Positions 49,456 to 60,027 of a stretch of DNA of 64,000 nucleotides are shown here, in pieces. Every line of letters starts with the position of its first letter. Position 1 is the first letter of the stretch. Under the pieces are notes generated by a model. It worked only from the letters and a program-made list of their open reading frames with translations. It ran no database searches and had not been told where the DNA came from. The translations under genes and the position numbers were made by a program. The DNA lies in sequence record MT446423.1. One strand, written 5' to 3'. This DNA comes from Escherichia virus TH58.

Positions 49456-52167
49456 ATGAAAGAATTTTACCTAACGGTTGAACAGATTGGTGATTCAATT
49501 TTTGAACGTTACATCGATTCTAATGGCTGTGAACGTACTCGTGAAGTAGAGTATAAGCCATCATTGTTTGCACATTGTCCTGAAAGTCAGGCCACGAAAT
49601 ATTTTGATATCTACGGTAAACCTTGTACTCGTAAACTGTTCGCTAACATGCGTGATGCCTCCCAATGGATTAAACGCATGGAAGATATCGGACTTGAAGC
49701 ACTTGGTATGGACGATTTCAAATTGGCGTATTTGTCTGACACTTATAACTATGAAATCAAATACGACCATACAAAAATTCGTGTGGCTAACTTCGACATC
49801 GAAGTAACATCTCCGGATGGGTTCCCTGAGCCGTCGCAAGCAAAACATCCGATTGATGCTATCACCCATTATGACTCAATTGACGACAGGTTCTACGTAT
49901 TTGATCTATTGAATTCTCCATATGGTAATGTGGAAGAATGGTCTATCGAAATTGCAGCTAAGCTTCAAGAACAAGGTGGTGATGAAGTTCCATCCGAAAT
50001 TATCGACAAAATCGTTTATATGCCGTTCGATAACGAAAAAGAATTGTTGATGGAATATCTCAACTTCTGGCAACAGAAAACTCCTGTCATTTTGACTGGA
50101 TGGAACGTTGAGTCATTTGATATTCCATATGTGTATAACCGAATCAAGAATATTTTTGGCGAATCTACTGCGAAACGTTTATCACCACATCGTAAAACTC
50201 GTGTTAAAGTTATCGAAAACATGTATGGTTCTCGTGAAATCATTACATTGTTCGGTATCTCTGTTCTTGATTACATTGACCTTTACAAAAAATTCTCTTT
50301 TACCAATCAACCGTCGTATTCTCTGGATTACATTTCAGAATTTGAATTGAACGTTGGTAAACTGAAATATGACGGCCCTATTTCTAAGCTTCGTGAAAGC
50401 AATCACCAACGATATATTTCTTATAACATTATCGACGTGTATCGTGTATTGCAAATTGATGCTAAGCGTCAGTTCATCAACTTGAGTTTGGACATGGGTT
50501 ATTATGCTAAGATACAGATTCAATCTGTGTTTAGTCCAATTAAAACATGGGATGCTATTATTTTTAATAGCCTTAAAGAGCAGAACAAGGTGATTCCACA
50601 AGGTCGTTCTCATCCGGTTCAACCTTATCCTGGCGCTTTTGTTAAGGAACCTATTCCAAATCGATACAAATATGTAATGAGTTTCGACCTTACATCTCTG
50701 TATCCAAGTATTATTCGCCAAGTGAATATTAGCCCAGAAACAATAGCAGGAACGTTTAAAGTAGCTCCATTGCATGATTATATTAACGCTGTTGCTGAAC
50801 GTCCTTCTGATGTGTACAGTTGTTCTCCTAACGGCATGATGTATTATAAAGACCGTGATGGTGTAGTTCCAACTGAAATCACTAAAGTCTTTAATCAACG
50901 TAAAGAACATAAAGGTTACATGCTTGCAGCTCAACGTAATGGTGAAATAATTAAAGAGGCATTGCATAATCCTAATCTTTCTGTCGACGAACCATTAGAT
51001 GTTGATTATCGTTTCGACTTCAGTGATGAGATTAAAGAAAAGATTAAAAAGTTGTCTGCTAAATCTCTTAATGAAATGTTGTTTAGAGCTCAACGTACTG
51101 AAGTTGCAGGTATGACTGCCCAAATTAACCGTAAATTGCTTATCAACTCACTTTATGGTGCACTTGGCAACGTTTGGTTCCGTTATTATGATTTGCGTAA
51201 TGCTACCGCAATCACAACATTTGGTCAAATGGCTTTACAGTGGATTGAACGTAAAGTTAATGAATATCTGAATGAAGTTTGTGGTACAGAAGGTGAAGCT
51301 TTCGTTCTATATGGTGATACAGACTCTATTTACGTATCTGCTGATAAAATTATCGATAAGGTTGGTGAATCTAAATTCCGTGATACCAACCATTGGGTAG
51401 ACTTCTTAGATAAGTTTGCACGTGAACGTATGGAACCAGCTATTGATAGAGGTTTCCGTGAAATGTGTGAATACATGAACAATAAACAACACTTAATGTT
51501 CATGGACCGAGAAGCTATCGCTGGTCCTCCGCTCGGTTCTAAAGGTATTGGTGGATTCTGGACTGGTAAGAAACGTTATGCATTAAACGTGTGGGACATG
51601 GAAGGTACTCGTTACGCTGAGCCTAAACTCAAAATAATGGGTCTAGAGACTCAGAAATCTTCGACTCCTAAAGCAGTACAGAAAGCTCTTAAAGAATGTA
51701 TTCGTCGTATGCTTCAAGAAGGTGAAGAATCATTACAAGAATATTTTAAAGAGTTTGAAAAAGAATTCCGTCAATTGAATTATATTAGCATCGCGTCGGT
51801 ATCTTCTGCGAATAACATTGCTAAATATGAAGTAGGTGGATTCCCGGGTCCTAAATGCCCGTTCCATATTCGTGGAATTCTGACGTATAACCGGGCTATC
51901 AAAGGTAATATCGATGCACCGCAAGTTGTAGAAGGTGAAAAAGTATATGTTCTGCCTTTACGTGAAGGAAACCCATTCGGTGATAAATGTATCGCATGGC
52001 CTTCTGGTACTGAAATCACAGATTTAATTAAAGACGACGTACTTCATTGGATGGACTACACTGTTCTCCTTGAGAAGACATTTATTAAACCACTTGAAGG
52101 ATTCACATCAGCAGCGAAACTCGATTACGAGAAGAAAGCATCTCTGTTCGATATGTTCGATTTTTGA
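49456..52167 (+). CDS. 43: DNA polymerase gp43 (family B)
   Basis: 903 aa; exonuclease motifs FDIEV and YNIIDV, polymerase motifs DLTSLYPSII, KILINSLYGALG, YGDTDS; N-terminus RB69-like from memory. Confidence 0.95.
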   Translation: MKEFYLTVEQIGDSIFERYIDSNGCERTREVEYKPSLFAHCPESQATKYFDIYGKPCTRKLFANMRDASQWIKRMEDIGLEALGMDDFKLAYLSDTYNYEIKYDHTKIRVANFDIEVTSPDGFPEPSQAKHPIDAITHYDSIDDRFYVFDLLNSPYGNVEEWSIEIAAKLQEQGGDEVPSEIIDKIVYMPFDNEKELLMEYLNFWQQKTPVILTGWNVESFDIPYVYNRIKNIFGESTAKRLSPHRKTRVKVIENMYGSREIITLFGISVLDYIDLYKKFSFTNQPSYSLDYISEFELNVGKLKYDGPISKLRESNHQRYISYNIIDVYRVLQIDAKRQFINLSLDMGYYAKIQIQSVFSPIKTWDAIIFNSLKEQNKVIPQGRSHPVQPYPGAFVKEPIPNRYKYVMSFDLTSLYPSIIRQVNISPETIAGTFKVAPLHDYINAVAERPSDVYSCSPNGMMYYKDRDGVVPTEITKVFNQRKEHKGYMLAAQRNGEIIKEALHNPNLSVDEPLDVDYRFDFSDEIKEKIKKLSAKSLNEMLFRAQRTEVAGMTAQINRKLLINSLYGALGNVWFRYYDLRNATAITTFGQMALQWIERKVNEYLNEVCGTEGEAFVLYGDTDSIYVSADKIIDKVGESKFRDTNHWVDFLDKFARERMEPAIDRGFREMCEYMNNKQHLMFMDREAIAGPPLGSKGIGGFWTGKKRYALNVWDMEGTRYAEPKLKIMGLETQKSSTPKAVQKALKECIRRMLQEGEESLQEYFKEFEKEFRQLNYISIASVSSANNIAKYEVGGFPGPKCPFHIRGILTYNRAIKGNIDAPQVVEGEKVYVLPLREGNPFGDKCIAWPSGTEITDLIKDDVLHWMDYTVLLEKTFIKPLEGFTSAAKLDYEKKASLFDMFDF

Positions 52168-52207
52168 TATAATGACATGGACGGTAAACTAATTAAATGA
52201 GAGAAAT

Positions 52208-52843
52208 ATGAAAACTACTCCTATTACTATCGCTATTGACGCAATCATAAAACAAGCTTCTTCTTTGGCCGCTATGGCCAAAGTAATTAGTCAAAACCCT
52301 GCTCGTTATAATGCTATTCTAGAAACTCTTCGACGCCCAGGACTTAGTAATTATGAAAGTCGTGTAATTATTACAGGTGTTGGTAAGAACGCTAATATCG
52401 CAACTAAAGCTTCTGAGACTTTTGCTTCATTAGGTATTCCTAGCATGTATTTGAACACCGGGCATTATTCTCACGGCGATGCAGGATTCATTGCGCCTAA
52501 TGATGTGTTGATTCATATTAGTCGTTCTGGTAAAACTGAAGAAATGATAGGCGTGGCTAAGCATCTTAAAATGATTCGTCCGAACGTCAAACAGATTCTG
52601 TTGCATTGTAACCCAGACATTCCACAAGAAAATGAAGCCCTTTTTGATTACTCTTTCTGTACAGGCATCGCAGTAGAGGTTGATGAGAATTCTCTGGCTC
52701 CGACTATGTCCACTACATTGTTGTTAGCGCTTATCGATACGTTTGCTATCAACCTTTCGTCTGAACGTGGATTTACCTCTAATGACTTCCTTAAGTTCCA
52801 CCCTGGTGGTGCACTAGGTGCCATGTTACGAGGCGAACAATGA
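52208..52843 (+). CDS. SIS-domain sugar-phosphate isomerase (KdsD/GutQ-like, probable arabinose-5-phosphate isomerase)
   Basis: ITGVGKNANIATKASETFASLGIPSMYLNTGHYSHGDAGF...HISRSGKTEE...HPGGALG follows the KdsD SIS pattern; 211 aa, no CBS domains. Confidence 0.65.
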   Translation: MKTTPITIAIDAIIKQASSLAAMAKVISQNPARYNAILETLRRPGLSNYESRVIITGVGKNANIATKASETFASLGIPSMYLNTGHYSHGDAGFIAPNDVLIHISRSGKTEEMIGVAKHLKMIRPNVKQILLHCNPDIPQENEALFDYSFCTGIAVEVDENSLAPTMSTTLLLALIDTFAINLSSERGFTSNDFLKFHPGGALGAMLRGEQ

Positions 52844-52983
52844 AAGCAATAACAATAGGACTTTTACTATTGATGCTTGTCATGACTATCTACTGGAGCT
52901 TAACGGCTCCAGTAATGATTCCAACACTTGTAATCGGATGGATTATGATTGGACTACAAGCAAAGTATGAATGCTTTAACTAG
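52840..52983 (+). CDS. Small membrane peptide (47 aa)
   Basis: ATGA overlap with SIS gene stop; GAGG RBS; two hydrophobic segments. Confidence 0.35.
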   Translation: MKAITIGLLLLMLVMTIYWSLTAPVMIPTLVIGWIMIGLQAKYECFN

Positions 52984-52996
52984 AATAGTGTACAAT
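52972..52996 (+). promoter_or_regulatory. Candidate MotA-dependent middle promoter
   Basis: TGCTTTA at 52972-52978, 12-nt spacer, TACAAT 52991-52996; upstream of ATG 53025. Confidence 0.45.
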
Positions 52997-53024
52997 ACTC
53001 CTACTTACCAATGAGGACCACAAC

Positions 53025-54710
53025 ATGAAAAAAGCTGTTATTCTTGGTGCTGGACTGGCAACTCGTTTGTATCCAATAACGCATCATATTCCTAAGGTGC
53101 TTGTTAACTATAAACAAGACACTATTCTGAGCAATTTGTATACAATTTATTCTGACCTTGGCGCAGATGAAATTATTGTAGTAGTTCATTCAAAATTTGC
53201 TGAAACCGTTCGAGCTTATTGTGAGCAAGAAGGGTTCAATGTGACTATTCGTACAGTTGATGAAGCATATGGTTCTGCTTATGCTCTTGCTAAATTGCAC
53301 AAAGATTTAGACGGTCATAATGTAATTGTTAACTGGTGTGATATTATTCCCGATTTTGGTTCATGGTCTTGGAATGTTAACGCAATCTATGTTAAGGGTG
53401 ACGAATGTCGATATAATTTCGACGGTGAAAATATCACTAACGTAGGTTCAACAGGTGGTAATGTTGTAGGAATTTATCAGTTCAAAGACTGGGAATTCTA
53501 TATGGGTTCTACTGATGAGGAAATTCATGAATACTGCAAAGGACGTGATTTCGTAGAATTCCTTTACGGCAGCGCATTCAATAAATCAGAGCTTATGAAT
53601 CTAATTGATTTAGGTGATATGCCTAAACTTGAAAAGGCTCATGAAGTTCGTGAACTTAATCGTAGTTTTAATGCGGTTGAAATTGGTGAAGAAACTGTAA
53701 CTAAATTCGCATTAACCGAACAGGGCCGATCTCTTCAGAAAGATGAGATTTCATGGTATCTTAAAGTGAAATCAGATTCAGTTCCTCAGTTAGTTTCTGT
53801 TAATGAAAATAACTTTGAAATGGAACGCATTAAAGGTAAGCCGGCATTTGAATATATTAAATCCAAATCGAGTCTTGCTCGTCCACAAATTGTTGATGCA
53901 ATTTTAGATGCACTGAAATTCAGCACAGACACTTATTTTGTAAGTCCTGAAACTGTTCGTCGTGATTTCACTAAAGAATTCTATACTAAAGTCATCGATC
54001 GTTGTGAAAGTATTCAACCATTGATTGATTCATTTGGTAAAATCACACATGTGAACTACACTAAGATTGGACGTCTGAAGCCAATGTTGAAACAAGCTTT
54101 AGAACACCTTATTCGTTATCATAACCGTTCTCAGGGACAGTACTCTGTTATTCATGGTGACCCGAACTTCAGTAATACTATGATTACTGATAATGGTGAA
54201 GTAAAGTTTATCGACCCTCGTGGATATTTTGGTGAAACCAAGATTTACGGGCCAAAATTGTATGACGAAGCTAAAGTGCTTTACGCTGTTTCAGGTTATG
54301 ATGAATTCAACGCCAATCCGACCTGGGGACAGTTTACTATTGATGAAATAACCTGTAATGTGACTATTAACATCAATCCATTAGTTTACAAATATGGAAA
54401 GATGAGTTCGTTTAACGTGTATCATCATTTGGCAGTGGCAATTATCTGGATTGCATTAGGTGGTTATTTCAAGAATAATCCACTTAAAGCGGTAGCCGCA
54501 TATTATAAAGGTATGGAACTTCTGACTAAGCAATTACGTAACATGGGCCGTGTACTTCAGGACGGCACTATTAGTTATGATGTAGCAGAACCTGTAACGG
54601 CTACTCTGATTACAAAAAATCCTGGTAAATGGGTACTAACTGATAAAGAAACTGGTGTTTCTTATCGTCCAATCGGTGGCGATAACACTCATCAATGGGA
54701 ACGAATCTAA
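53025..54710 (+). CDS. Bifunctional sugar-1-phosphate nucleotidyltransferase / sugar kinase
   Basis: N-terminal MKKAVILGAGLATRLYPIT (NDP-sugar pyrophosphorylase G-loop); C-terminal HGDPNFSN and FIDPRG (APH/choline-kinase-like motifs); 561 aa. Confidence 0.65.
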   Translation: MKKAVILGAGLATRLYPITHHIPKVLVNYKQDTILSNLYTIYSDLGADEIIVVVHSKFAETVRAYCEQEGFNVTIRTVDEAYGSAYALAKLHKDLDGHNVIVNWCDIIPDFGSWSWNVNAIYVKGDECRYNFDGENITNVGSTGGNVVGIYQFKDWEFYMGSTDEEIHEYCKGRDFVEFLYGSAFNKSELMNLIDLGDMPKLEKAHEVRELNRSFNAVEIGEETVTKFALTEQGRSLQKDEISWYLKVKSDSVPQLVSVNENNFEMERIKGKPAFEYIKSKSSLARPQIVDAILDALKFSTDTYFVSPETVRRDFTKEFYTKVIDRCESIQPLIDSFGKITHVNYTKIGRLKPMLKQALEHLIRYHNRSQGQYSVIHGDPNFSNTMITDNGEVKFIDPRGYFGETKIYGPKLYDEAKVLYAVSGYDEFNANPTWGQFTIDEITCNVTININPLVYKYGKMSSFNVYHHLAVAIIWIALGGYFKNNPLKAVAAYYKGMELLTKQLRNMGRVLQDGTISYDVAEPVTATLITKNPGKWVLTDKETGVSYRPIGGDNTHQWERI

Positions 54711-55096
54711 TGCACCGTGTAAAAAACATGCTTAATCTTTGTTTTGACGTCGATGATTGTATAACAGAGTGGAATAACAATCGTGATTACGTGAACTTCA
54801 AACCGGACGTCGAAATGGTGTCTGCCATTAATGCCCTGTATGATGCAGGGCATACCATAACGCTTTACACTGCTCGCGGTATGAAGTCAGTCGGTCCTGG
54901 TCGTATAGCAATTGACATTCTCCCAAGTCTGATTCAGAACTTGGCAAACATTGGATTGAAGTACCATAATTTGCTAACACATAAACCAGTATATGATTGG
55001 ATTATCGACGACAAAGCTATGCGTCCTGACGAATTCAAAGCTCTTATGAATAAAGGCGAATTCGAAACATTTAAATCATATAAACCGAATCTATAA
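54710..55096 (+). CDS. Small HAD-superfamily phosphatase
   Basis: Motif I LCFDVDDCIT, motif II TLYTARG, motif IV WIIDDK; 128 aa. Confidence 0.55.
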   Translation: MHRVKNMLNLCFDVDDCITEWNNNRDYVNFKPDVEMVSAINALYDAGHTITLYTARGMKSVGPGRIAIDILPSLIQNLANIGLKYHNLLTHKPVYDWIIDDKAMRPDEFKALMNKGEFETFKSYKPNL

Positions 55097-55150
55097 TAAT
55101 TTAAGTAAGACCTGCAAAAACCATCGCAACAATTAACGCGAGATGCAAAA

Positions 55151-56311
55151 ATGAATACCTTTAAAATCGGAACGAATTTTGATTTAGCTCTTCTTGATAA
55201 AATCGTAGAGCTCAATAAAACTTATCCTAATAGCTTGATAAACGAAGTATACGGCTCTACAAGAGAAATGGCTTTTGTAGCAGCCAGACCTGATTTTAGG
55301 CTTCCTGACGTTGACAAAAAGATGTTAGAAGATTACGTTAAACGTTGTAACGAATTAGGTATTTGCTTTAACTATACACTCAACACGATAAATCCTGGTT
55401 CAAAAAGAGAACTAGTTGAGTGGAAGAAGAAAGCTATTCAGGATTATGTTCAGTATCTTTGGTCAATAGGTGTATGGCGTATTACTATCGCTAACCCTGT
55501 TGTTATGGAAATTGTTCGTGAAGTCAATAAAGACATTGAGATTGAAGTTTCAACAATTCTACATGTCGATGCTGTAACTCAAATCAAATACTTGCATGAC
55601 CAATATAATATCAAAAAGGTCTGCTGTGGAATTCACAAGAACCGTTCAGTTTCTTTCCTGAAGCGTGCAGCAGAGTTTTGCAATAAGAACAATATAATAT
55701 TTGAAGTTCTTGTAAATGAGTTCTGTTCTAATGCTGGTAAAGGGTATACAACACATTGTAGTTATCGTGACTCTTGCTATATTTTCCATAGCACCGATGT
55801 TACAGTAGATGATGCCAAATCCTTAAATGGATATCCAATGCAACACTGTATTAAAGCTCGTGATACAGATCCATTTAACTGGTTGAGAACTCGTTTTGTT
55901 CGTCCTCAAGATTTGAAACTTTATAATGATATTGGTATCACTCAATTCAAAGTTTCAGGACGTACAGGTAGCACAGACTACATTTTGAAAGTTCTTGAAG
56001 CATACGCTTCTGAAAAGTTTGAAGGTAATTTGTTAGAACTGTGGAAGCCTTTAGAGACTATTTTCACTCTTGAAAACGAAACTGAGTTTTCACATACAGT
56101 AAATATTGAAACCTCTTTGTTAGATGGCTTTTTAGAAAAAAGGTGGTTCAAACATCCAGATTTCGATTGTGCTAATGAAATCTGCGGGACGACGTGTACA
56201 TATTGTGAAAGATATTATAAACGTCAGTTATCTAAAAATGGGTTATCAGAAAACTCTATATCTATTATTGATATAACTAACTCTGACGACGCTTTGAGGT
56301 ACCCAGAATGA
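55151..56311 (+). CDS. Uncharacterised protein with C-terminal 4-Cys cluster (possible metal or Fe-S site); weak U32-family resemblance
   Basis: C-terminal CANEICGTTCTYC (C-x4-C-x3-C-x2-C); GITQFKVSGR resembles a U32-family K-I-E-G-R segment; the U32 signature itself is not matched; 386 aa. Confidence 0.35.
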   Translation: MNTFKIGTNFDLALLDKIVELNKTYPNSLINEVYGSTREMAFVAARPDFRLPDVDKKMLEDYVKRCNELGICFNYTLNTINPGSKRELVEWKKKAIQDYVQYLWSIGVWRITIANPVVMEIVREVNKDIEIEVSTILHVDAVTQIKYLHDQYNIKKVCCGIHKNRSVSFLKRAAEFCNKNNIIFEVLVNEFCSNAGKGYTTHCSYRDSCYIFHSTDVTVDDAKSLNGYPMQHCIKARDTDPFNWLRTRFVRPQDLKLYNDIGITQFKVSGRTGSTDYILKVLEAYASEKFEGNLLELWKPLETIFTLENETEFSHTVNIETSLLDGFLEKRWFKHPDFDCANEICGTTCTYCERYYKRQLSKNGLSENSISIIDITNSDDALRYPE

Positions 56312-56457
56312 TTTCTAGAAAAACTTTTAACCACCAACTTAATGAAGAGATTTTGACTACGAAAATTAACAGCAACGAACAAATTCTTAAAAAGGCCCTT
56401 ATTGGCCTGTTTGAAACTAAAGCGGCTAAAGTGATTAAAGAACCTGTTCAATTGTAA
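56308..56457 (+). CDS. Small ORF (49 aa) ending at an in-frame TAA followed by 30 more open codons
   Basis: ATGA overlap with upstream gene; frame stays open after the TAA at 56455-56457 until 56546. Confidence 0.3.
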   Translation: MISRKTFNHQLNEEILTTKINSNEQILKKALIGLFETKAAKVIKEPVQL

Positions 56458-56589
56458 TACTACGCTGATGCATTTCTTCATAGTGTTCTTGGAAATATCG
56501 ATGCTGAAGCTTTACGTTATATCAACACCGCTAAGAAATTCAAATAAGCTTTATGAATTGAGTATATAATAAATTGTATTGAGGTAAAC

Positions 56590-57306
56590 ATGGGAAAACA
56601 TAACACAATGAAATATATTAAAGCCGCAGATTTTCAATCCGCATTTAAAGCTGTCAATCGTGAAATTTTAGAAAACCCGGAATTCGTTACTGATTCTCGT
56701 ATTGGACGTTGTAATGAAATTGGGTCTATGACAGTAGTTGTTGACACTCCATCATCATTCAAAATGACCGACCCACGTATTAACCGCATCTCTTATGAAT
56801 ATGCTGAAGATTTCTGGAAGTTTATGATTTCTGGCGGTACCGACGCAGAAGAAGCATTTAAGGCATATCCTAATGTCGCTAAATTTATTTCTAAACCAAA
56901 ATCAGATGCTTTGCCTGCGAACTTCAACACTTTCTATGGTCCACGAATTGCGGCCCAGTTACCAGCTCTTCTCAAAGAACTTAAAGAGAAACCTAATTCA
57001 CGAAGAGTTGTGTTCCAAATTCTAGAAAGTTCAGATCAGGCTTTGCTTGATTCGGACGAAACACTTGAATATCCATGTACTGACTCAGTGACTTATTATA
57101 TTCGTGATGGTAAGCTTTATACCCACTGTCATATGCGTTCTCAGAACTGTGCTGTTGTTATGCAGTTGGATTTTTATCTCCAAGGAAAATTACTTCATTA
57201 TATCGCTAACGAATGTGGTGTAGAAGTTGGTGATTATACTCATACCATGGTAAGTGCCCATGTGTTTGAACGTGATTTTGATTATGTTAAAGGATTCCTT
57301 GACTAA
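56590..57306 (+). CDS. Thymidylate-synthase-fold pyrimidine hydroxymethylase (divergent gp42 analog)
   Basis: Catalytic-Cys region EYPCTDSVTYYIRDGKLYTHCHMRSQN parallels TS and dCMP hydroxymethylase; downstream Asp (MQLDF) at the specificity position; 238 aa. Confidence 0.6.
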   Translation: MGKHNTMKYIKAADFQSAFKAVNREILENPEFVTDSRIGRCNEIGSMTVVVDTPSSFKMTDPRINRISYEYAEDFWKFMISGGTDAEEAFKAYPNVAKFISKPKSDALPANFNTFYGPRIAAQLPALLKELKEKPNSRRVVFQILESSDQALLDSDETLEYPCTDSVTYYIRDGKLYTHCHMRSQNCAVVMQLDFYLQGKLLHYIANECGVEVGDYTHTMVSAHVFERDFDYVKGFLD

Positions 57307-58205
57307 TGGCTATTTTCCGCGTACCTATCTTGAGTATGCGGTCTTATGAAACTGGTCAGTATGCTATCCTTAAGGATGGTAACTTCCAACTTCATTTGCA
57401 CCGTGCTAATCCAGGTGATGTGATTACATATCCACGTAATGCATCTGATATTAAAGAATGTGAACGTCTTTTCCCAGAATTTAAGTTTGTTCCATTATGG
57501 TATAAAGATAACGCGTATAACACTCGTAAATATTTCTGGTCTGAAAATGAATTTGTGGTTGATTCATTAATTGCTTATTATGATTGTGATTTTCTAATCA
57601 CAGATATCACTGGATATGACGGCGCTTTTGATGTGGAATTCAATTTCAATATCACTGCAGACCCTAATAAACCGCGTTTTTATATTGACGAATTCTTAAA
57701 AACCGACATGTTGTCGGTTAATCGTTCACTTCAAACTACTGTGTTGAATGAACGTCAAAAGGAAGTGCTGGTTAACGCTGGTGCGGATGGTAATAAGATT
57801 ATCGTAACGCAGAAAGTTATACGTCCTTCCATCATGCAGCGTCTTGTAGGTGATTTGGCTCCTATTCATCTAGATGGTATTTTTCATCCATTTCGAATTA
57901 GTGACCCGTGCTATCGTTTTGAACAAGTGGTTGAATGTGCAATTCAATTAGGTCAACCGCTTTATATAACCGATCCAAATAATAGCTTCGACAGAAATAA
58001 GTATCCTGAAGAAGCGCTGATTCGAATTTTTAAACCAACTAAAACTGAGTACTATCAAATTCTTAAAGGTCGGCCGAAGATTCAATATTTCGAAAATCCT
58101 GAAGAAGTATTCCATCCAGGTCTTGGCGAGTTCATCTACTTTAACGCTTTAATTTCTTCGCCGTATAATATACCTAAATATGAAGATGTCGTAATCGAGG
58201 AATAA
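57306..58205 (+). CDS. Uncharacterised protein (candidate DNA sugar transferase by context)
   Basis: 299 aa; no motif recognised; sits between the hydroxymethylase and a kinase where T4 has beta-gt. Confidence 0.4.
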   Translation: MAIFRVPILSMRSYETGQYAILKDGNFQLHLHRANPGDVITYPRNASDIKECERLFPEFKFVPLWYKDNAYNTRKYFWSENEFVVDSLIAYYDCDFLITDITGYDGAFDVEFNFNITADPNKPRFYIDEFLKTDMLSVNRSLQTTVLNERQKEVLVNAGADGNKIIVTQKVIRPSIMQRLVGDLAPIHLDGIFHPFRISDPCYRFEQVVECAIQLGQPLYITDPNNSFDRNKYPEEALIRIFKPTKTEYYQILKGRPKIQYFENPEEVFHPGLGEFIYFNALISSPYNIPKYEDVVIEE

Positions 58206-58206
58206 A

Positions 58207-58755
58207 ATGGCTAAAATTATTTTAGTAGATGGCCCGGATAATGCTGGTAAAACAACTTTCATTAATGACATAATGGAAATTAGTGAAAGATATGTAAAGA
58301 TTGATTTCCCTAAACGAACAGTTGACGGACGTTTCGATGTTAAGTCTCGAAATGAAGTTGGTTGTTTCGAAACGATGTTGAATTATTTAGATCCTACTAA
58401 GATTTATCTGTTAGACCGTGGATATATTAGTAACTGGGTTTATGGACGTATTCGTCAAGATGCTGACTCGGTTCTTGACGTTTATGAACAGGATTATGTT
58501 CGTCTTTGCCAAAACCACGATGTGTTCACAATTATTTTAACACGTAACGAAATGACTGAAAGTTTTGAAGACGACCTTATTACTTTGTCTTCATTCGGTT
58601 TTAATACAGTAATTTCATATTTTGAAGAGTTTGCAATCCATAACGAAATCCAAACGTATCAATTACTTAATCATGATGGTGCTAACAAAGTTATAGGATT
58701 TAATGCAAGCGAACGTAATAATTTGATTACAGAAATTATCAAATGGGCTCGTTAA
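58207..58755 (+). CDS. P-loop nucleoside/nucleotide kinase-like protein
   Basis: Walker A ILVDGPDNAGKTT and LLDRGYIS (dNK/TMPK-like DR(Y/S) motif); 182 aa. Confidence 0.5.
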   Translation: MAKIILVDGPDNAGKTTFINDIMEISERYVKIDFPKRTVDGRFDVKSRNEVGCFETMLNYLDPTKIYLLDRGYISNWVYGRIRQDADSVLDVYEQDYVRLCQNHDVFTIILTRNEMTESFEDDLITLSSFGFNTVISYFEEFAIHNEIQTYQLLNHDGANKVIGFNASERNNLITEIIKWAR

Positions 58756-58777
58756 GAGCCTGTTTAAAGTTTTAAAT

Positions 58778-58802
58778 GCTGTATAACCCTTAGTATATAA
58801 TC
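58778..58802 (+). promoter_or_regulatory. Candidate MotA-dependent middle promoter for uvsX
   Basis: TGCTGTA (MotA-box-like) 58778-58784, 12-nt spacer, TATAAT 58797-58802. Confidence 0.45.
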
Positions 58803-58854
58803 GTCTTATCTTTTAAACATGAGTAAAATATAATGATGCCTATGGAAAAATACA

Positions 58855-60027
58855 ATGTCTGATTTAAAATCTCGTCTGATTAAAGCTTCTACTTCTAAAA
58901 TGACTGCAGACTTGACTAAGTCTAAGTTGTTTAATAATCGTGATGAAGTCCCTACTCGTATTCCGATGTTGAATATTGCATTAGGTGGTGCACTGAATGC
59001 TGGGTTGCAATCAGGCTTAACTATTTTTGCTGCTCCTTCTAAACACTTTAAAACGTTGTTTGGACTGACCATGGTTGCAGCATATATGAAGAAATATAAA
59101 GATGCAATTTGTTTGTTCTATGATTCAGAATTTGGTGCTTCAGAATCTTATTTTCGTTCAATGGGTGTTGATTTAGACCGTGTAGTTCATACTCCTATTC
59201 AATCTGTCGAACAACTTAAAGTTGATATGACTAATCAGCTTGACGCGATTGAACGCGGTGATAAAGTTATTATCTTTATCGATTCAATCGGTAATACTGC
59301 ATCTAAGAAAGAAACTGAAGATGCATTGAACGAGAAAGTCGTAGGTGATATGTCTCGTGCTAAGGCACTTAAATCTCTTTTCCGCATTGTGACTCCTTAT
59401 CTGACTATTAAAGATATTCCGTGTGTTGCAATTAACCATACCGCAATGGAAATCGGTGGATTGTATCCTAAAGAGATTATGGGTGGTGGTACAGGTATTC
59501 TTTACTCTGCTAACACTGTATTCTTTATCTCTAAACGTCAGGTTAAAGAAGGTACAGAATTGACGGGTTATGACTTCACGTTGAAAGCAGAAAAATCTCG
59601 CACCGTTAAAGAAAAATCTACTTTCCCAATCACGGTTAATTTTGATGGCGGTATTGACCCATTCAGTGGCTTGTTAGAAATGGCAACTGAAATTGGTTTT
59701 GTAGTTAAGCCTAAAGCTGGTTGGTATGCTCGTGAATTCCTTGACGAAGAAACAGGCGAAATGATTCGTGAAGAGAAATCGTGGCGTGCTAAAGCTACTG
59801 ATTGTGTAGAATTCTGGGGACCATTGTTTAAACACAAACCTTTCCGAGATGCAATTGAAACTAAATATAAACTAGGTGCTATCTCTTCTATTAAAGAAGT
59901 TGATGATGCTGTTAACGACCTTATTAATTGCAAAGCAACAACTAAAGTTCCGGTTAAAACTTCTGATGCTCCGTCTGCAGCAGATATTGAAAACGACCTT
60001 GACGAAATGGAAGATTTCGATGAATAA
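58855..60027 (+). CDS. uvsX: RecA-like recombinase UvsX
   Basis: Walker A region and RecA core; 390 aa. Confidence 0.9.
   Translation: MSDLKSRLIKASTSKMTADLTKSKLFNNRDEVPTRIPMLNIALGGALNAGLQSGLTIFAAPSKHFKTLFGLTMVAAYMKKYKDAICLFYDSEFGASESYFRSMGVDLDRVVHTPIQSVEQLKVDMTNQLDAIERGDKVIIFIDSIGNTASKKETEDALNEKVVGDMSRAKALKSLFRIVTPYLTIKDIPCVAINHTAMEIGGLYPKEIMGGGTGILYSANTVFFISKRQVKEGTELTGYDFTLKAEKSRTVKEKSTFPITVNFDGGIDPFSGLLEMATEIGFVVKPKAGWYAREFLDEETGEMIREEKSWRAKATDCVEFWGPLFKHKPFRDAIETKYKLGAISSIKEVDDAVNDLINCKATTKVPVKTSDAPSAADIENDLDEMEDFDE

What the first reader, a model, noticed from the sequence alone, without database searches (positions are those of the whole stretch)
53025..54710. Fused nucleotidyltransferase + APH-type kinase: a one-protein salvage route to an NDP-sugar
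The N-terminal ILGAGLATRLYPIT G-loop is typical of sugar-1-P nucleotidyltransferases, while the C-terminus carries HGDPNFSN and FIDPRG motifs typical of APH/choline-kinase-fold kinases (the fold used by anomeric sugar kinases). A kinase-pyrophosphorylase fusion of this fold combination is unusual in a phage and implies free sugar -> sugar-1-P -> NDP-sugar inside one polypeptide.
Basis: partly seen in the sequence, partly recalled or inferred. Interest (0 to 1): 0.7.

Follow-up and report, generated by a model that had tools for sequence, protein, structure and literature searches.

The report
Phage UDP-arabinose enzyme, already characterised
This gene of an RB69-like phage encodes a two-part enzyme (sugar kinase plus nucleotide-sugar synthase) that helps make the activated arabinose the phage attaches to its DNA to evade host defences; the protein is real and intact, but it was identified in 2018 and a near-identical pathway was worked out biochemically in 2025-2026, so it is not new.

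Summary
Window 53025..54710 (+) is one intact 561-aa ORF. Its N-terminal half is a sugar-1-phosphate nucleotidyltransferase and its C-terminal half is an APH/choline-kinase-fold kinase, and all three quoted motifs are present. Sequence profiles and two high-confidence AlphaFold models (pLDDT 94) confirm both folds.

The window comes from a Mosigvirus. The protein differs at 7 of 561 residues from RB69 ORF53_52c (gp52:53), described by Thomas et al. 2018. Lee et al. 2026 equate gp52:53 with AfhE of coliphage HY126. As they cite He et al. [quoted passage not shown]

The substrate is arabinose-5-phosphate, made from ribulose-5-P by the adjacent SIS isomerase, not free sugar. The two activities are also not consecutive: the adjacent small HAD phosphatase removes the 5-phosphate between them. 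The logic copies the ADP-heptose pathway (GmhA/HldE/GmhB) using different folds. The fusion is common in phages (373 records).

Verdict: already known, low interest.

Seen in passing: the same cassette is widespread in bacteria and archaea, and giant-virus-like contigs carry all four activities in one chain.

The parts
53025..54710 (+). Whole gene: 561-aa bifunctional protein, ortholog of RB69 ORF53_52c / gp52:53 and homolog of HY126 AfhE
   Evidence: ORF listed. It is 96.9% identical in nucleotides and 554/561 identical in protein to RB69 28094..29780c once the known extra C in that record is removed. Literature identification.
53025..53645 (+). N-terminal domain (aa 1-207): sugar-1-phosphate nucleotidyltransferase. 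By homology it is a UDP-D-arabinofuranose pyrophosphorylase.
   Evidence: Pfam NTP_transferase, E 8.5e-10, above the gathering score. PDB sequence hits: LicC 1jyk at E 2e-5; with the family profile, HddC at 4e-13 and LicC at 2e-11. Foldseek hits to RmlA, MurU, LicC and HddC at E about 1e-8 with target TM-scores 0.6-0.7. Invariant residues G10, R14, K24, D106, D195, D198 and K201.
53040..53081 (+). Nucleotide-binding G-loop, ILGAGLATRLYPIT (aa 6-19)
   Evidence: Located. It aligns to the LicC G-loop KAIILAAGLGTRLRPLT.
53646..54545 (+). C-terminal domain (aa 208-507): APH/choline-kinase-fold kinase. By homology it is a D-arabinose-5-phosphate 1-kinase.
54153..54176 (+). Catalytic loop HGDPNFSN (aa 377-384), the HxDxxxxN motif of APH/choline kinases
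   Evidence: Located. H377, G378, D379, S383 and N384 are invariant in 43 homologs.
54207..54224 (+). FIDPRG (aa 395-400): metal-binding Asp motif, equivalent to the DFG motif
   Evidence: Located. I396, D397, P398, R399 and G400 are invariant.
54546..54707 (+). C-terminal tail of about 54 aa (aa 508-561), found only in Straboviridae-type members; function unknown
   Evidence: Present in homologs of at least about 36% identity and absent from more distant phage, cellular and giant-virus homologs. Modelled with pLDDT 78-90.
52208..52843 (+). SIS-domain arabinose-5-phosphate isomerase (RB69 gp55). It supplies Ara5P from ribulose-5-P.
   Evidence: Pfam SIS. NCBIfam KpsF/GutQ at 2e-32 and KdsD at 7e-31. 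PHROG 'arabinose 5-phosphate isomerase'. A SIS domain is adjacent to or fused with the fusion gene in 47 of the 85 fetched loci.
54695..55096 (+). Small capless HAD phosphatase (RB69 gp51; AfhF homolog). It removes the 5-phosphate between the two steps of the fusion protein. The start is either ATG 54695 or ATG 54710 (the RB69 annotation and the PDB construct); either start overlaps the stop codon of the fusion gene.
   Evidence: 128 of 129 residues identical to PDB 9iqw; also matches 1xpj at E 5e-10. NCBIfam TIGR01689 'capsule biosynthesis phosphatase', below threshold. Function taken. A homologous ORF of about 125 aa follows the fusion gene in 40 cellular loci (hhalign probability 96%, E 5e-9).
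56590..57306 (+). Thymidylate-synthase homolog, the 5-hydroxy-dCMP synthase (RB69 gp48). It makes the acceptor base.
   Evidence: 236 of 238 residues identical to PDB 9iqc/9ir2. Function shown experimentally for RB69 gp48.
57306..58205 (+). Putative DNA arabinosyltransferase 1 (RB69 gp46:47), the consumer of UDP-Araf
   Evidence: Positional ortholog of RB69p046/047. Assignment from Lee et al. Table 1. No Pfam hit; phrog_3891, unknown function.

Best explanation
The gene encodes the Mosigvirus ortholog of AfhE. AfhE is a bifunctional enzyme in the phage pathway that makes UDP-D-arabinofuranose, the sugar donor used to arabinosylate 5-hydroxycytosine in phage DNA.

Proposed sequence of steps:
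1. Host ribulose-5-P is isomerised to D-arabinose-5-P by the adjacent SIS isomerase (52208..52843).
2. The C-terminal APH-fold kinase domain of this protein uses ATP to phosphorylate the anomeric C1, giving arabinofuranose-1,5-bisphosphate.
3. The separate small HAD phosphatase (54695..55096), whose gene overlaps this gene's stop codon, removes the 5-phosphate to give Araf-1-P.
4. The N-terminal nucleotidyltransferase domain condenses Araf-1-P with UTP to give UDP-Araf and pyrophosphate.
5. Glycosyltransferases (57306..58205, plus one outside the window) transfer the arabinose to 5-hydroxycytosine in DNA.

Basis of each part:
- Shown here: the ORF, both folds, the catalytic residues, the gene neighbourhood and its conservation.
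- Taken from the literature for near-identical proteins: the substrates, the order of steps and the use of UTP.
- My inference from carbohydrate chemistry: keeping the 5-phosphate until C1 is phosphorylated locks the pentose in the furanose ring. This explains why the kinase acts on Ara5P rather than on free arabinose, and why no mutase is needed.
For: Identity:
- 554/561 residues match RB69 gp52:53.
- The window's HAD and ThyA-like neighbours are about 99% identical to PDB entries 9iqw and 9iqc/9ir2/9iqu.
- Lee et al. 2026 equate RB69 gp52:53 with HY126 AfhE. [quoted passage not shown]

Folds:
- N-terminal domain.
- Catalytic residues are invariant in both domains.

Functional coupling to the SIS and HAD genes:
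- SIS is adjacent or fused in 47 of 85 loci.
- A homologous small HAD lies directly downstream in 40 cellular loci.
- Single-chain HAD-SIS-NT-kinase proteins exist.
- A 35%-identical homolog in a jumbo-phage contig sits in the same SIS...GT...fusion-HAD-ThyA-like module.

Other:
- The best N-terminal profile hit is HddC of the analogous heptose pathway.
- The 53%-identical Thanatos homolog TH1_060 is essential for phage propagation.
- RB69 and other Mosigvirus DNA carries arabinosyl-5-hydroxycytosine.
Against: - The primary biochemical paper (He et al. 2026, Nat Chem Biol) could not be read. The substrate and the order of steps therefore rest on a secondary account in one paper.
- The HY126 AfhE sequence itself was not compared. 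Its near-identity to the window protein is inferred from the neighbouring proteins and from the RB69 equivalence.
- Table 1 of Lee et al. still lists the alternative order.
- Nothing computed here distinguishes Ara5P from free arabinose as the kinase substrate. Gene co-occurrence fits both orders.
- The window protein itself does not reach Pfam's gathering score for any kinase family.
- Purified Thanatos TH1_060 showed no pyrophosphorylase activity with xylose-1-P and any of five NTPs. This fits strict Araf-1-P specificity but is a negative result.
Confidence: 0.85

Rival explanations
1. The reader's model (also listed in Table 1 of Lee et al.). The HAD first dephosphorylates Ara5P to free D-arabinose, or free arabinose is scavenged. 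The kinase domain then makes Ara-1-P from the free sugar, and the N-terminal domain converts it directly to NDP-arabinose, so two consecutive steps occur in one polypeptide.
For: - APH-fold anomeric kinases such as NahK, glucosamine kinase and maltokinase act on unphosphorylated sugars and are structural neighbours.
- Table 1 of Lee et al. lists this order.
- Co-occurrence with a HAD phosphatase fits this order equally well.
Against: - The text of Lee et al. reports that He et al. demonstrated Ara5P kinase activity for AfhE and bisphosphate phosphatase activity for AfhF.
- Free D-arabinose equilibrates mainly to the pyranose form, whereas the product is a furanoside (inference from carbohydrate chemistry).
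- The analogous heptose pathways use the order kinase, then phosphatase, then transferase (established knowledge of GmhA/HldE/GmhB).
- The cluster makes its own Ara5P, so it is a de novo route and not salvage.
Confidence: 0.1
2. A LicC/LicA-type enzyme: a choline or ethanolamine (or other small alcohol) kinase fused to a cytidylyltransferase, making a CDP-alcohol rather than a nucleotide sugar.
For: LicC is the best single-sequence PDB hit. Choline and ethanolamine kinases and LicA are the top kinase-fold neighbours.
Against: - Identities are only 10-20%.
- The gene sits between an arabinose-5-P isomerase and a sugar-phosphate-type HAD, next to glycosyltransferase and 5hodCMP synthase genes.
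- Mosigvirus DNA carries arabinose, not phosphocholine.
- HddC outranks LicC once the family profile is used.
Confidence: 0.02
3. GlmU-like bifunctional enzyme, or a plain nucleotidyltransferase with a non-catalytic C-terminal domain, as annotated in several GenBank records ('bifunctional protein GlmU', 'mannose-1-phosphate guanyltransferase').
For: GenBank annotations. Sub-threshold NCBIfam GlmU-type hits that cover only aa 3-109.
Against: - All NCBIfam hits lie far below their cut-offs (for example 51 bits against 292) and cover only the G-loop region.
- The C-terminal half has a protein-kinase-like fold, not a left-handed beta-helix acetyltransferase fold.
- Its kinase catalytic residues are invariant.
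Confidence: 0.02

Closest known systems
AfhE of Escherichia phage HY126 (He et al. 2026, Nat Chem Biol, as cited in PMC13326640); the same protein as RB69 ORF53_52c / gp52:53 (Thomas et al. 2018, PMC6024577) and DLP3 gp82
   Same: Same two-domain architecture, same length (561 aa in RB69) and same gene neighbourhood (arabinose-5-P isomerase, HAD, U32-like protein, 5hodCMP synthase, glycosyltransferase, nucleotide kinase). 98.8% identical to RB69 gp52:53 and about 56% identical to the Acinetobacter phage DLP-type proteins.
   Different: No functional difference is apparent: 7 substitutions against RB69, none at an invariant position. The HY126 protein sequence itself was not available for direct comparison.
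ADP-heptose pathway GmhA / HldE / GmhB, and the GDP-heptose pathway GmhA / HddA / GmhB / HddC (established knowledge)
   Same: Identical pathway logic. A SIS isomerase makes an aldose omega-phosphate, a kinase phosphorylates C1 to give a 1,omega-bisphosphate, a HAD phosphatase removes the distal phosphate, and a nucleotidyltransferase activates the sugar-1-P. In HldE the kinase and transferase are also fused even though their steps are not consecutive. HddC is the best profile hit of the N-terminal domain.
   Different: The HldE kinase has a ribokinase/PfkB fold and its transferase a cytidylyltransferase (HIGH-motif) fold, with the kinase at the N-terminus. Here the kinase has an APH/protein-kinase-like fold at the C-terminus and the transferase is RmlA/LicC-like. 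The sugar is a pentofuranose and not a heptose. This is an analogous system, not a homologous fusion.
LicC / LicA (phosphocholine cytidylyltransferase and choline kinase) and MurU / AmgK (MurNAc-1-P uridylyltransferase and anomeric MurNAc/GlcNAc kinase) (established knowledge)
   Same: Same pair of folds. LicC and MurU are top structural hits of the N-terminal domain. LicA and choline kinases are top hits of the C-terminal domain. In both systems a kinase and a nucleotidyltransferase activate one small molecule.
   Different: Those kinases act on unphosphorylated substrates and their two steps are consecutive, which makes them true salvage routes. Here the substrate is a sugar 5-phosphate and a phosphatase step intervenes. 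Sequence identity is only 10-20%.
5-Methylthioribose kinase (MtnK; PDB 2olc, 2pyw)
   Different: The 5-substituent is a methylthio group and not a phosphate. The enzyme is stand-alone and belongs to the methionine salvage pathway.

Membership tests
AfhE-type bifunctional Ara5P kinase / UDP-Ara pyrophosphorylase (phage arabinosyl-5-hydroxycytosine pathway) | N-terminal RmlA/LicC-like nucleotidyltransferase fused to a C-terminal APH-fold kinase in one chain of about 550-565 aa | tested here: met
AfhE-type bifunctional Ara5P kinase / UDP-Ara pyrophosphorylase (phage arabinosyl-5-hydroxycytosine pathway) | Orthology to the described proteins (RB69 gp52:53, HY126 AfhE) | tested here: met
   554/561 identical to RB69 gp52:53. 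For HY126 the evidence is indirect: the neighbouring HAD and ThyA-like proteins are about 99% identical to PDB 9iqw and 9iqc, and Lee et al. make the equivalence.
AfhE-type bifunctional Ara5P kinase / UDP-Ara pyrophosphorylase (phage arabinosyl-5-hydroxycytosine pathway) | Gene cluster with an arabinose-5-P isomerase, an AfhF-type HAD phosphatase, a 5hodCMP synthase and a DNA glycosyltransferase | tested here: met
AfhE-type bifunctional Ara5P kinase / UDP-Ara pyrophosphorylase (phage arabinosyl-5-hydroxycytosine pathway) | Ara5P 1-kinase activity and UTP:Araf-1-P uridylyltransferase activity | not testable with these tools
   Known only from a secondary literature account; the primary paper is not held.
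Sugar-1-phosphate nucleotidyltransferase (Pfam PF00483 NTP_transferase) | Score above Pfam's gathering threshold, and a G-x-G-x-x-R ... K signature loop with conserved acidic metal/sugar ligands | tested here: met
   39.1 bits against a cut-off of 21.2. G10, R14, K24, D106, D195 and D198 are invariant. Fold confirmed.
APH / choline-kinase phosphotransferases (Pfam PF01636 and relatives) | Bilobal protein-kinase-like fold with a beta3 Lys, an alphaC Glu, an HxDxxxxN catalytic loop and a downstream metal-binding Asp | tested here: met
APH / choline-kinase phosphotransferases (Pfam PF01636 and relatives) | Pfam gathering score reached by the protein itself | tested here: not met
   The window protein gives only sub-threshold hits (Fructosamin_kin 17.2 against 22.4; EcKL; RIO1) and no PF01636 hit. 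18 of 43 homologs match PF01636 at E up to 0.01. It is a divergent branch of the superfamily.
GlmU (the annotation in several GenBank records) | C-terminal left-handed beta-helix acetyltransferase domain, and score above the NCBIfam cut-off | tested here: not met
   The C-terminal half has a kinase fold. GlmU models score about 22 bits against cut-offs of 367-505.
HldE-type heptose kinase/adenylyltransferase | Ribokinase-fold kinase domain plus cytidylyltransferase-fold transferase domain | tested here: not met
   No ribokinase/PfkB or CTP_transf_like hits. It works like HldE but is not a member.
Free-sugar salvage kinase/pyrophosphorylase (FKP, AmgK-MurU type) | The kinase acts on an unphosphorylated sugar and its product is the direct substrate of the transferase | not testable with these tools
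   The literature account says the substrate is Ara5P, with an intervening phosphatase.

The most novel reading that the evidence does not exclude
The AfhE-type cassette (an isomerase, the nucleotidyltransferase-kinase fusion and a small HAD phosphatase) may not be a phage speciality. It may be a general 'furanose-locking' route to nucleotide-activated furanoses in bacteria, archaea and viruses, used mainly for glycans rather than DNA.

Observations that allow this reading:
- At least 1,751 cellular protein clusters, all with generic names.
- The small HAD conserved directly downstream of the fusion.
- Two mutually exclusive isomerase partners, SIS in 41 loci and a ribulose-phosphate-epimerase plus PMI-like cupin pair in 8 loci, which suggests different sugars.
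- Single-chain HAD-SIS-NT-kinase enzymes in giant-virus-like contigs next to glycosyltransferases.

If this is true, and not already covered in He et al. 2026 (which I could not read), it would identify an uncharacterised and widespread source of NDP-D-arabinofuranose and related donors.
Probability: 0.35. Interest if true: 0.55.

Novelty: already known. Interest (0 to 1): 0.2.

Why it matters
The enzyme supplies the activated sugar for arabinosyl-5-hydroxycytosine. This DNA hypermodification lets RB69-like phages resist restriction enzymes and CRISPR nucleases, and it also makes them targets of type IV systems. That matters for phage therapy and phage engineering.

For this finding, the value lies in correct annotation. 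Public records still call the protein 'hypothetical', 'GlmU' or 'mannose-1-P guanyltransferase', and its HAD partner 'phosphoheptose isomerase'. PHROGs lists the fusion as function unknown.

The mechanistic point is that this is a de novo route through a bisphosphate intermediate, analogous to the heptose pathway, and not a salvage route. That changes which substrates should be tested. The wider cellular and giant-virus distribution is the only part that might still hold something new.

Tried and rejected
1. The primary papers (He et al. 2026, Mahler et al. 2025) are not held. A full-text search for a bisphosphate/arabinofuranose/nucleotidyltransferase paper found nothing.
2. The promoter and terminator scan of 52100..58900 gave 20 promoter-like sites against 27.6 expected and 5 terminator-like sites against 3.6 expected. 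No usable expression signal.
3. phmmer and jackhmmer with the phage HAD found only the two phage-like loci. Homology to the cellular small ORFs appeared only with profile-profile comparison.
4. Foldseek with the full-length model returned only N-terminal-domain hits, so the kinase half had to be modelled separately.
5. I recalled that the Pasteurella multocida type B capsule contains arabinose, which would have linked the BcbF-type phosphatase to arabinose. The current structure has a fructose side chain instead. That lead is rejected as stated. Whether BcbE belongs to the fusion family could not be checked.
6. The GlmU, LicCA and HldE memberships were considered and rejected (see the membership tests).
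7. I could not decide between Ara5P and free arabinose as the kinase substrate from sequence.
Full report
**1. What is in the sequence**

Window 53025..54710 (+) is a single ATG-initiated ORF of 561 aa. A GAGGA ribosome-binding site lies 9 nt upstream of the start.
- ILGAGLATRLYPIT at aa 6-19
- HGDPNFSN at aa 377-384
- FIDPRG at aa 395-400

The flanking genes are clamp loader gp44/62, RegA, DNA polymerase gp43, a thymidylate-synthase homolog and UvsX, which mark a T4-like phage. Megablast finds the gene at 95-99% identity in about 150 Mosigvirus (RB69-like) genomes.

**2. Identity with a published gene**

Against RB69 (NC_004928, 28094..29780 complement) the gene is 96.9% identical in nucleotides. 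The only gap is one extra C in the RB69 record. Thomas et al. 2018 showed that this base is a sequencing error which had split one gene into ORF053c and ORF052c. With that base removed, the proteins differ at 7 of 561 residues.

There are 51 nucleotide substitutions but only 7 amino-acid changes, so the gene is under strong purifying selection. Thomas et al. cloned and expressed the merged 561-residue ORF53_52c. They noted its NTP-transferase/phosphotransferase composition and its link to the SIS protein ORF055c, and proposed a role in UDP-arabinose synthesis.

**3. Both folds tested independently**

N-terminal half (nucleotidyltransferase):
- Pfam NTP_transferase above its gathering score.
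- LicC is the best single-sequence PDB hit.
- With a 43-sequence family profile, HddC (heptose-1-P guanylyltransferase) scores E 4e-13 and LicC 2e-11.
- The full-length AlphaFold model (pLDDT 94.1, pTM 0.91) gives Foldseek hits to RmlA, MurU, LicC, GDP-mannose pyrophosphorylases and HddC at E about 1e-8.

C-terminal half (kinase):
- The window protein gives only sub-threshold Pfam kinase hits, but 18 of 43 homologs match Pfam APH.
- The family profile matches APH(2'') structures at E about 1e-6.
- A separate model of aa 208-561 (pLDDT 94.2) gives Foldseek hits to APH(2'')-IIa (E 1e-7), choline and ethanolamine kinases, LicA and macrolide phosphotransferases.

In the alignment, which reaches down to 28% identity, the catalytic-type residues of both domains are invariant: G10, R14, K24, D106, D195 and D198 in the first domain; K227, E241, H377, D379, N384 and D397 in the second. 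They reproduce Table 1 of Lee et al. 2026, whose top hits were 4y7t and 1jyk for the N-terminal domain and 3ham and 6hwl for the C-terminal domain.

**4. What it does, according to the literature**

Lee et al. 2026 (NAR) showed that RB69 DNA carries mono- and poly-arabinosylated 5-hydroxycytosine, not arabosyl-hmC. They also showed that the thymidylate-synthase homolog gp48 makes 5-hydroxy-dCMP.

For the sugar branch they cite He et al. 2026 (Nat Chem Biol) and Mahler et al. 2025:
- AfhF is an Mg-dependent HAD phosphatase that converts the 1,5-bisphosphate to Araf-1-P.
- RB69 gp52:53 and gp51 are the counterparts of AfhE and AfhF.

I could not read the primary papers.

The PDB holds entries that are almost identical to the window's neighbouring proteins:
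- 9iqw, 'Capsule biosynthesis protein': 128/129 residues identical to the HAD.
- 9iqc, 9ir2 and 9iqu, 'Thymidylate synthase': 236/238 identical to the ThyA-like protein.

Lee et al. mention a He et al. crystal structure of the HY126 homolog of this synthase. I therefore infer that the characterised phage is about 99% identical to this one across the cluster. No near-identical entry exists for the fusion protein itself.

Independent genetic support comes from Shewanella phage Thanatos. Its 53%-identical homolog TH1_060 is essential for propagation, and the purified protein showed no pyrophosphorylase activity on xylose-1-P.

**5.

The pathway is not salvage of a free sugar, and the two activities are not consecutive. 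The route is:
1. Ribulose-5-P to Ara5P, by the SIS isomerase (52208..52843).
2. Ara5P to Araf-1,5-P2, by the kinase domain.
3. Araf-1,5-P2 to Araf-1-P, by the HAD (54695..55096), whose gene overlaps the stop codon of the fusion gene.
4. Araf-1-P to UDP-Araf, by the N-terminal domain.

This is the logic of the ADP-heptose pathway: GmhA is a SIS isomerase, HldE is a fused kinase/transferase with non-consecutive steps, and GmhB is a HAD phosphatase (established knowledge). Here the same logic is built from different folds and in the opposite domain order. It works like HldE but is not a member of that family.

My own inference is that phosphorylating C1 while O5 is still esterified locks the furanose ring. 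This explains the choice of substrate and the absence of a mutase.

It is now the minority reading, and I give it about 0.1.

**6. Context evidence gathered here**

The functional link between the fusion, the SIS isomerase and the HAD phosphatase is strongly conserved.
- A 35%-identical homolog on a 350-kb jumbo-phage-like contig sits in the arrangement SIS ... GT2 ... fusion - HAD - ThyA-like.
- In 80 bacterial and archaeal loci found with the family alignment (24-30% identity), a SIS gene lies within 3 kb in 41. The organisms include Sutterella, Helicobacter, Campylobacter, Trichodesmium, Polynucleobacter, Clostridia, candidate phyla radiation (CPR) bacteria, Micrarchaeota, Thermoplasmata and Methanobrevibacter.
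- In 40 of these loci an ORF of about 125 aa lies directly downstream of the fusion gene. It is homologous to the phage HAD by profile-profile comparison (probability 96%, E 5e-9).
- Proteins of 890-955 aa carry HAD, SIS, nucleotidyltransferase and kinase domains in one chain.

These results support the pathway but do not by themselves fix the order of the kinase and phosphatase steps.

**7. Rarity**

The fusion is not unusual in phages.
- tblastn finds it in 373 phage records from Escherichia, Acinetobacter, Klebsiella, Vibrio, Shigella, Serratia, Enterobacter, Proteus, Yersinia and other hosts.
- An exhaustive search with the kinase domain finds 448 representatives (50%-identity clusters) at E up to 1e-10. 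Most are NT-kinase fusions, and a few are stand-alone kinases.
- Curated libraries lag behind the literature. PHROGs lists phrog_4098 as 'unknown function'. NCBIfam gives only far-sub-threshold nucleotidyltransferase hits. GenBank names range from 'hypothetical' to 'GlmU'.

**8. Verdict**

- Observation: confirmed.
- Interpretation: partly supported. The folds, the NDP-sugar product and arabinose are right. Free-sugar salvage, consecutive steps in one polypeptide and rarity in phages are not.
- Novelty: already known (2018 identification; 2025-2026 biochemistry).
- Interest: low, 0.2.

The only potentially new material lies outside the finding. It is the large cellular family with generic names, which has two mutually exclusive isomerase partners, and the four-domain single-chain versions in giant-virus-like contigs.

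Noticed in passing
L003:8001-10781 (protein P0084) and L087:7001-9679 (protein P0119); also P0088, P0089, P0091, P0092, P0098, P0106: Proteins of 890-955 aa carry HAD, SIS, nucleotidyltransferase and APH-like kinase domains in one chain, which is the whole ribulose-5-P to NDP-sugar route. P0084 lies on a contig with MutS7-HNH, RNA polymerase Rpb2 and an Atg-like gene, so the contig looks like a giant virus. P0119 lies next to a GT2, epimerases and a second paralogous NT-HAD-kinase fusion. P0091 comes from a eukaryotic transcriptome.
   Followed up: partly
L006-L085 (80 bacterial and archaeal loci): The NT-kinase fusion is widespread in cellular genomes, with at least 1,751 protein clusters that all carry generic names. 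Its partner genes fall into mutually exclusive sets: a SIS isomerase in 41 loci, and a ribulose-phosphate-3-epimerase plus PMI-type-I-like cupin pair in 8 loci (Sutterellaceae and others), with neither detected in 31. This suggests more than one sugar specificity. Other homologs of about 788 aa (P0108 and similar) carry a C-terminal extension; Pfam gives only a sub-threshold mannose-6-P-isomerase C-terminal match in P0108 (E 5.8e-4) and nothing in P0109, and the cupin label is a JGI source annotation.
   Followed up: partly
e.g. L027:9876-10838, L017:9888-10826, L012:9888-11081: In at least 14 cellular loci a conserved protein of 312-435 aa with no Pfam match directly follows the small HAD. 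It could be an uncharacterised transferase that uses the pathway's product.
   Followed up: partly
window 54546..54707 (aa 508-561 of the fusion protein): A C-terminal tail of about 54 residues (...TKNPGKWVLTDKETGVSYRPIGG..QWERI) is present only in Straboviridae-type members. It is absent from jumbo-phage, cellular and giant-virus homologs. It is modelled with fair confidence, and its function is unknown.
   Followed up: no
window 52840..52983 (+): A 47-aa strongly hydrophobic ORF (MKAITIGLLLLMLVMTIYWSL...) begins with an ATGA overlap on the stop codon of the SIS gene and fills most of the 182-nt gap upstream of the fusion gene. It lies in the region annotated RB69ORF054c in RB69 and may be a small membrane protein.
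   Followed up: no
window 55151..56311 (+): A peptidase-U32-family protein (RB69 gp50) sits inside the modification cluster. Its only NCBIfam hit is a weak match to UbiU, an O2-independent hydroxylase component. Lee et al. list it as 'sugar or heterocycle reductase'. Its role in the pathway is unsettled.
   Followed up: no
RB69 record NC_004928 (L086) and many Mosigvirus records: Annotation errors persist. RB69 still splits gp52/53 and gp46/47 because of single-base errors. The HAD phosphatase is widely labelled 'phosphoheptose isomerase' or 'haloacid dehydrogenase', and the fusion protein 'GlmU' or 'mannose-1-P guanyltransferase'.
   Followed up: yes
window 54695..55096 (HAD): The only curated family that matches the small HAD is TIGR01689, 'EcbF-BcbF capsule biosynthesis phosphatase'. 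In Pasteurella multocida type B, BcbE/F/G are assigned to adding a fructose side chain to the capsule (PMC13552107). The same kinase-phosphatase-transferase logic might therefore also make an activated fructofuranose. Whether BcbE is a member of the fusion family was not checked.
   Followed up: partly
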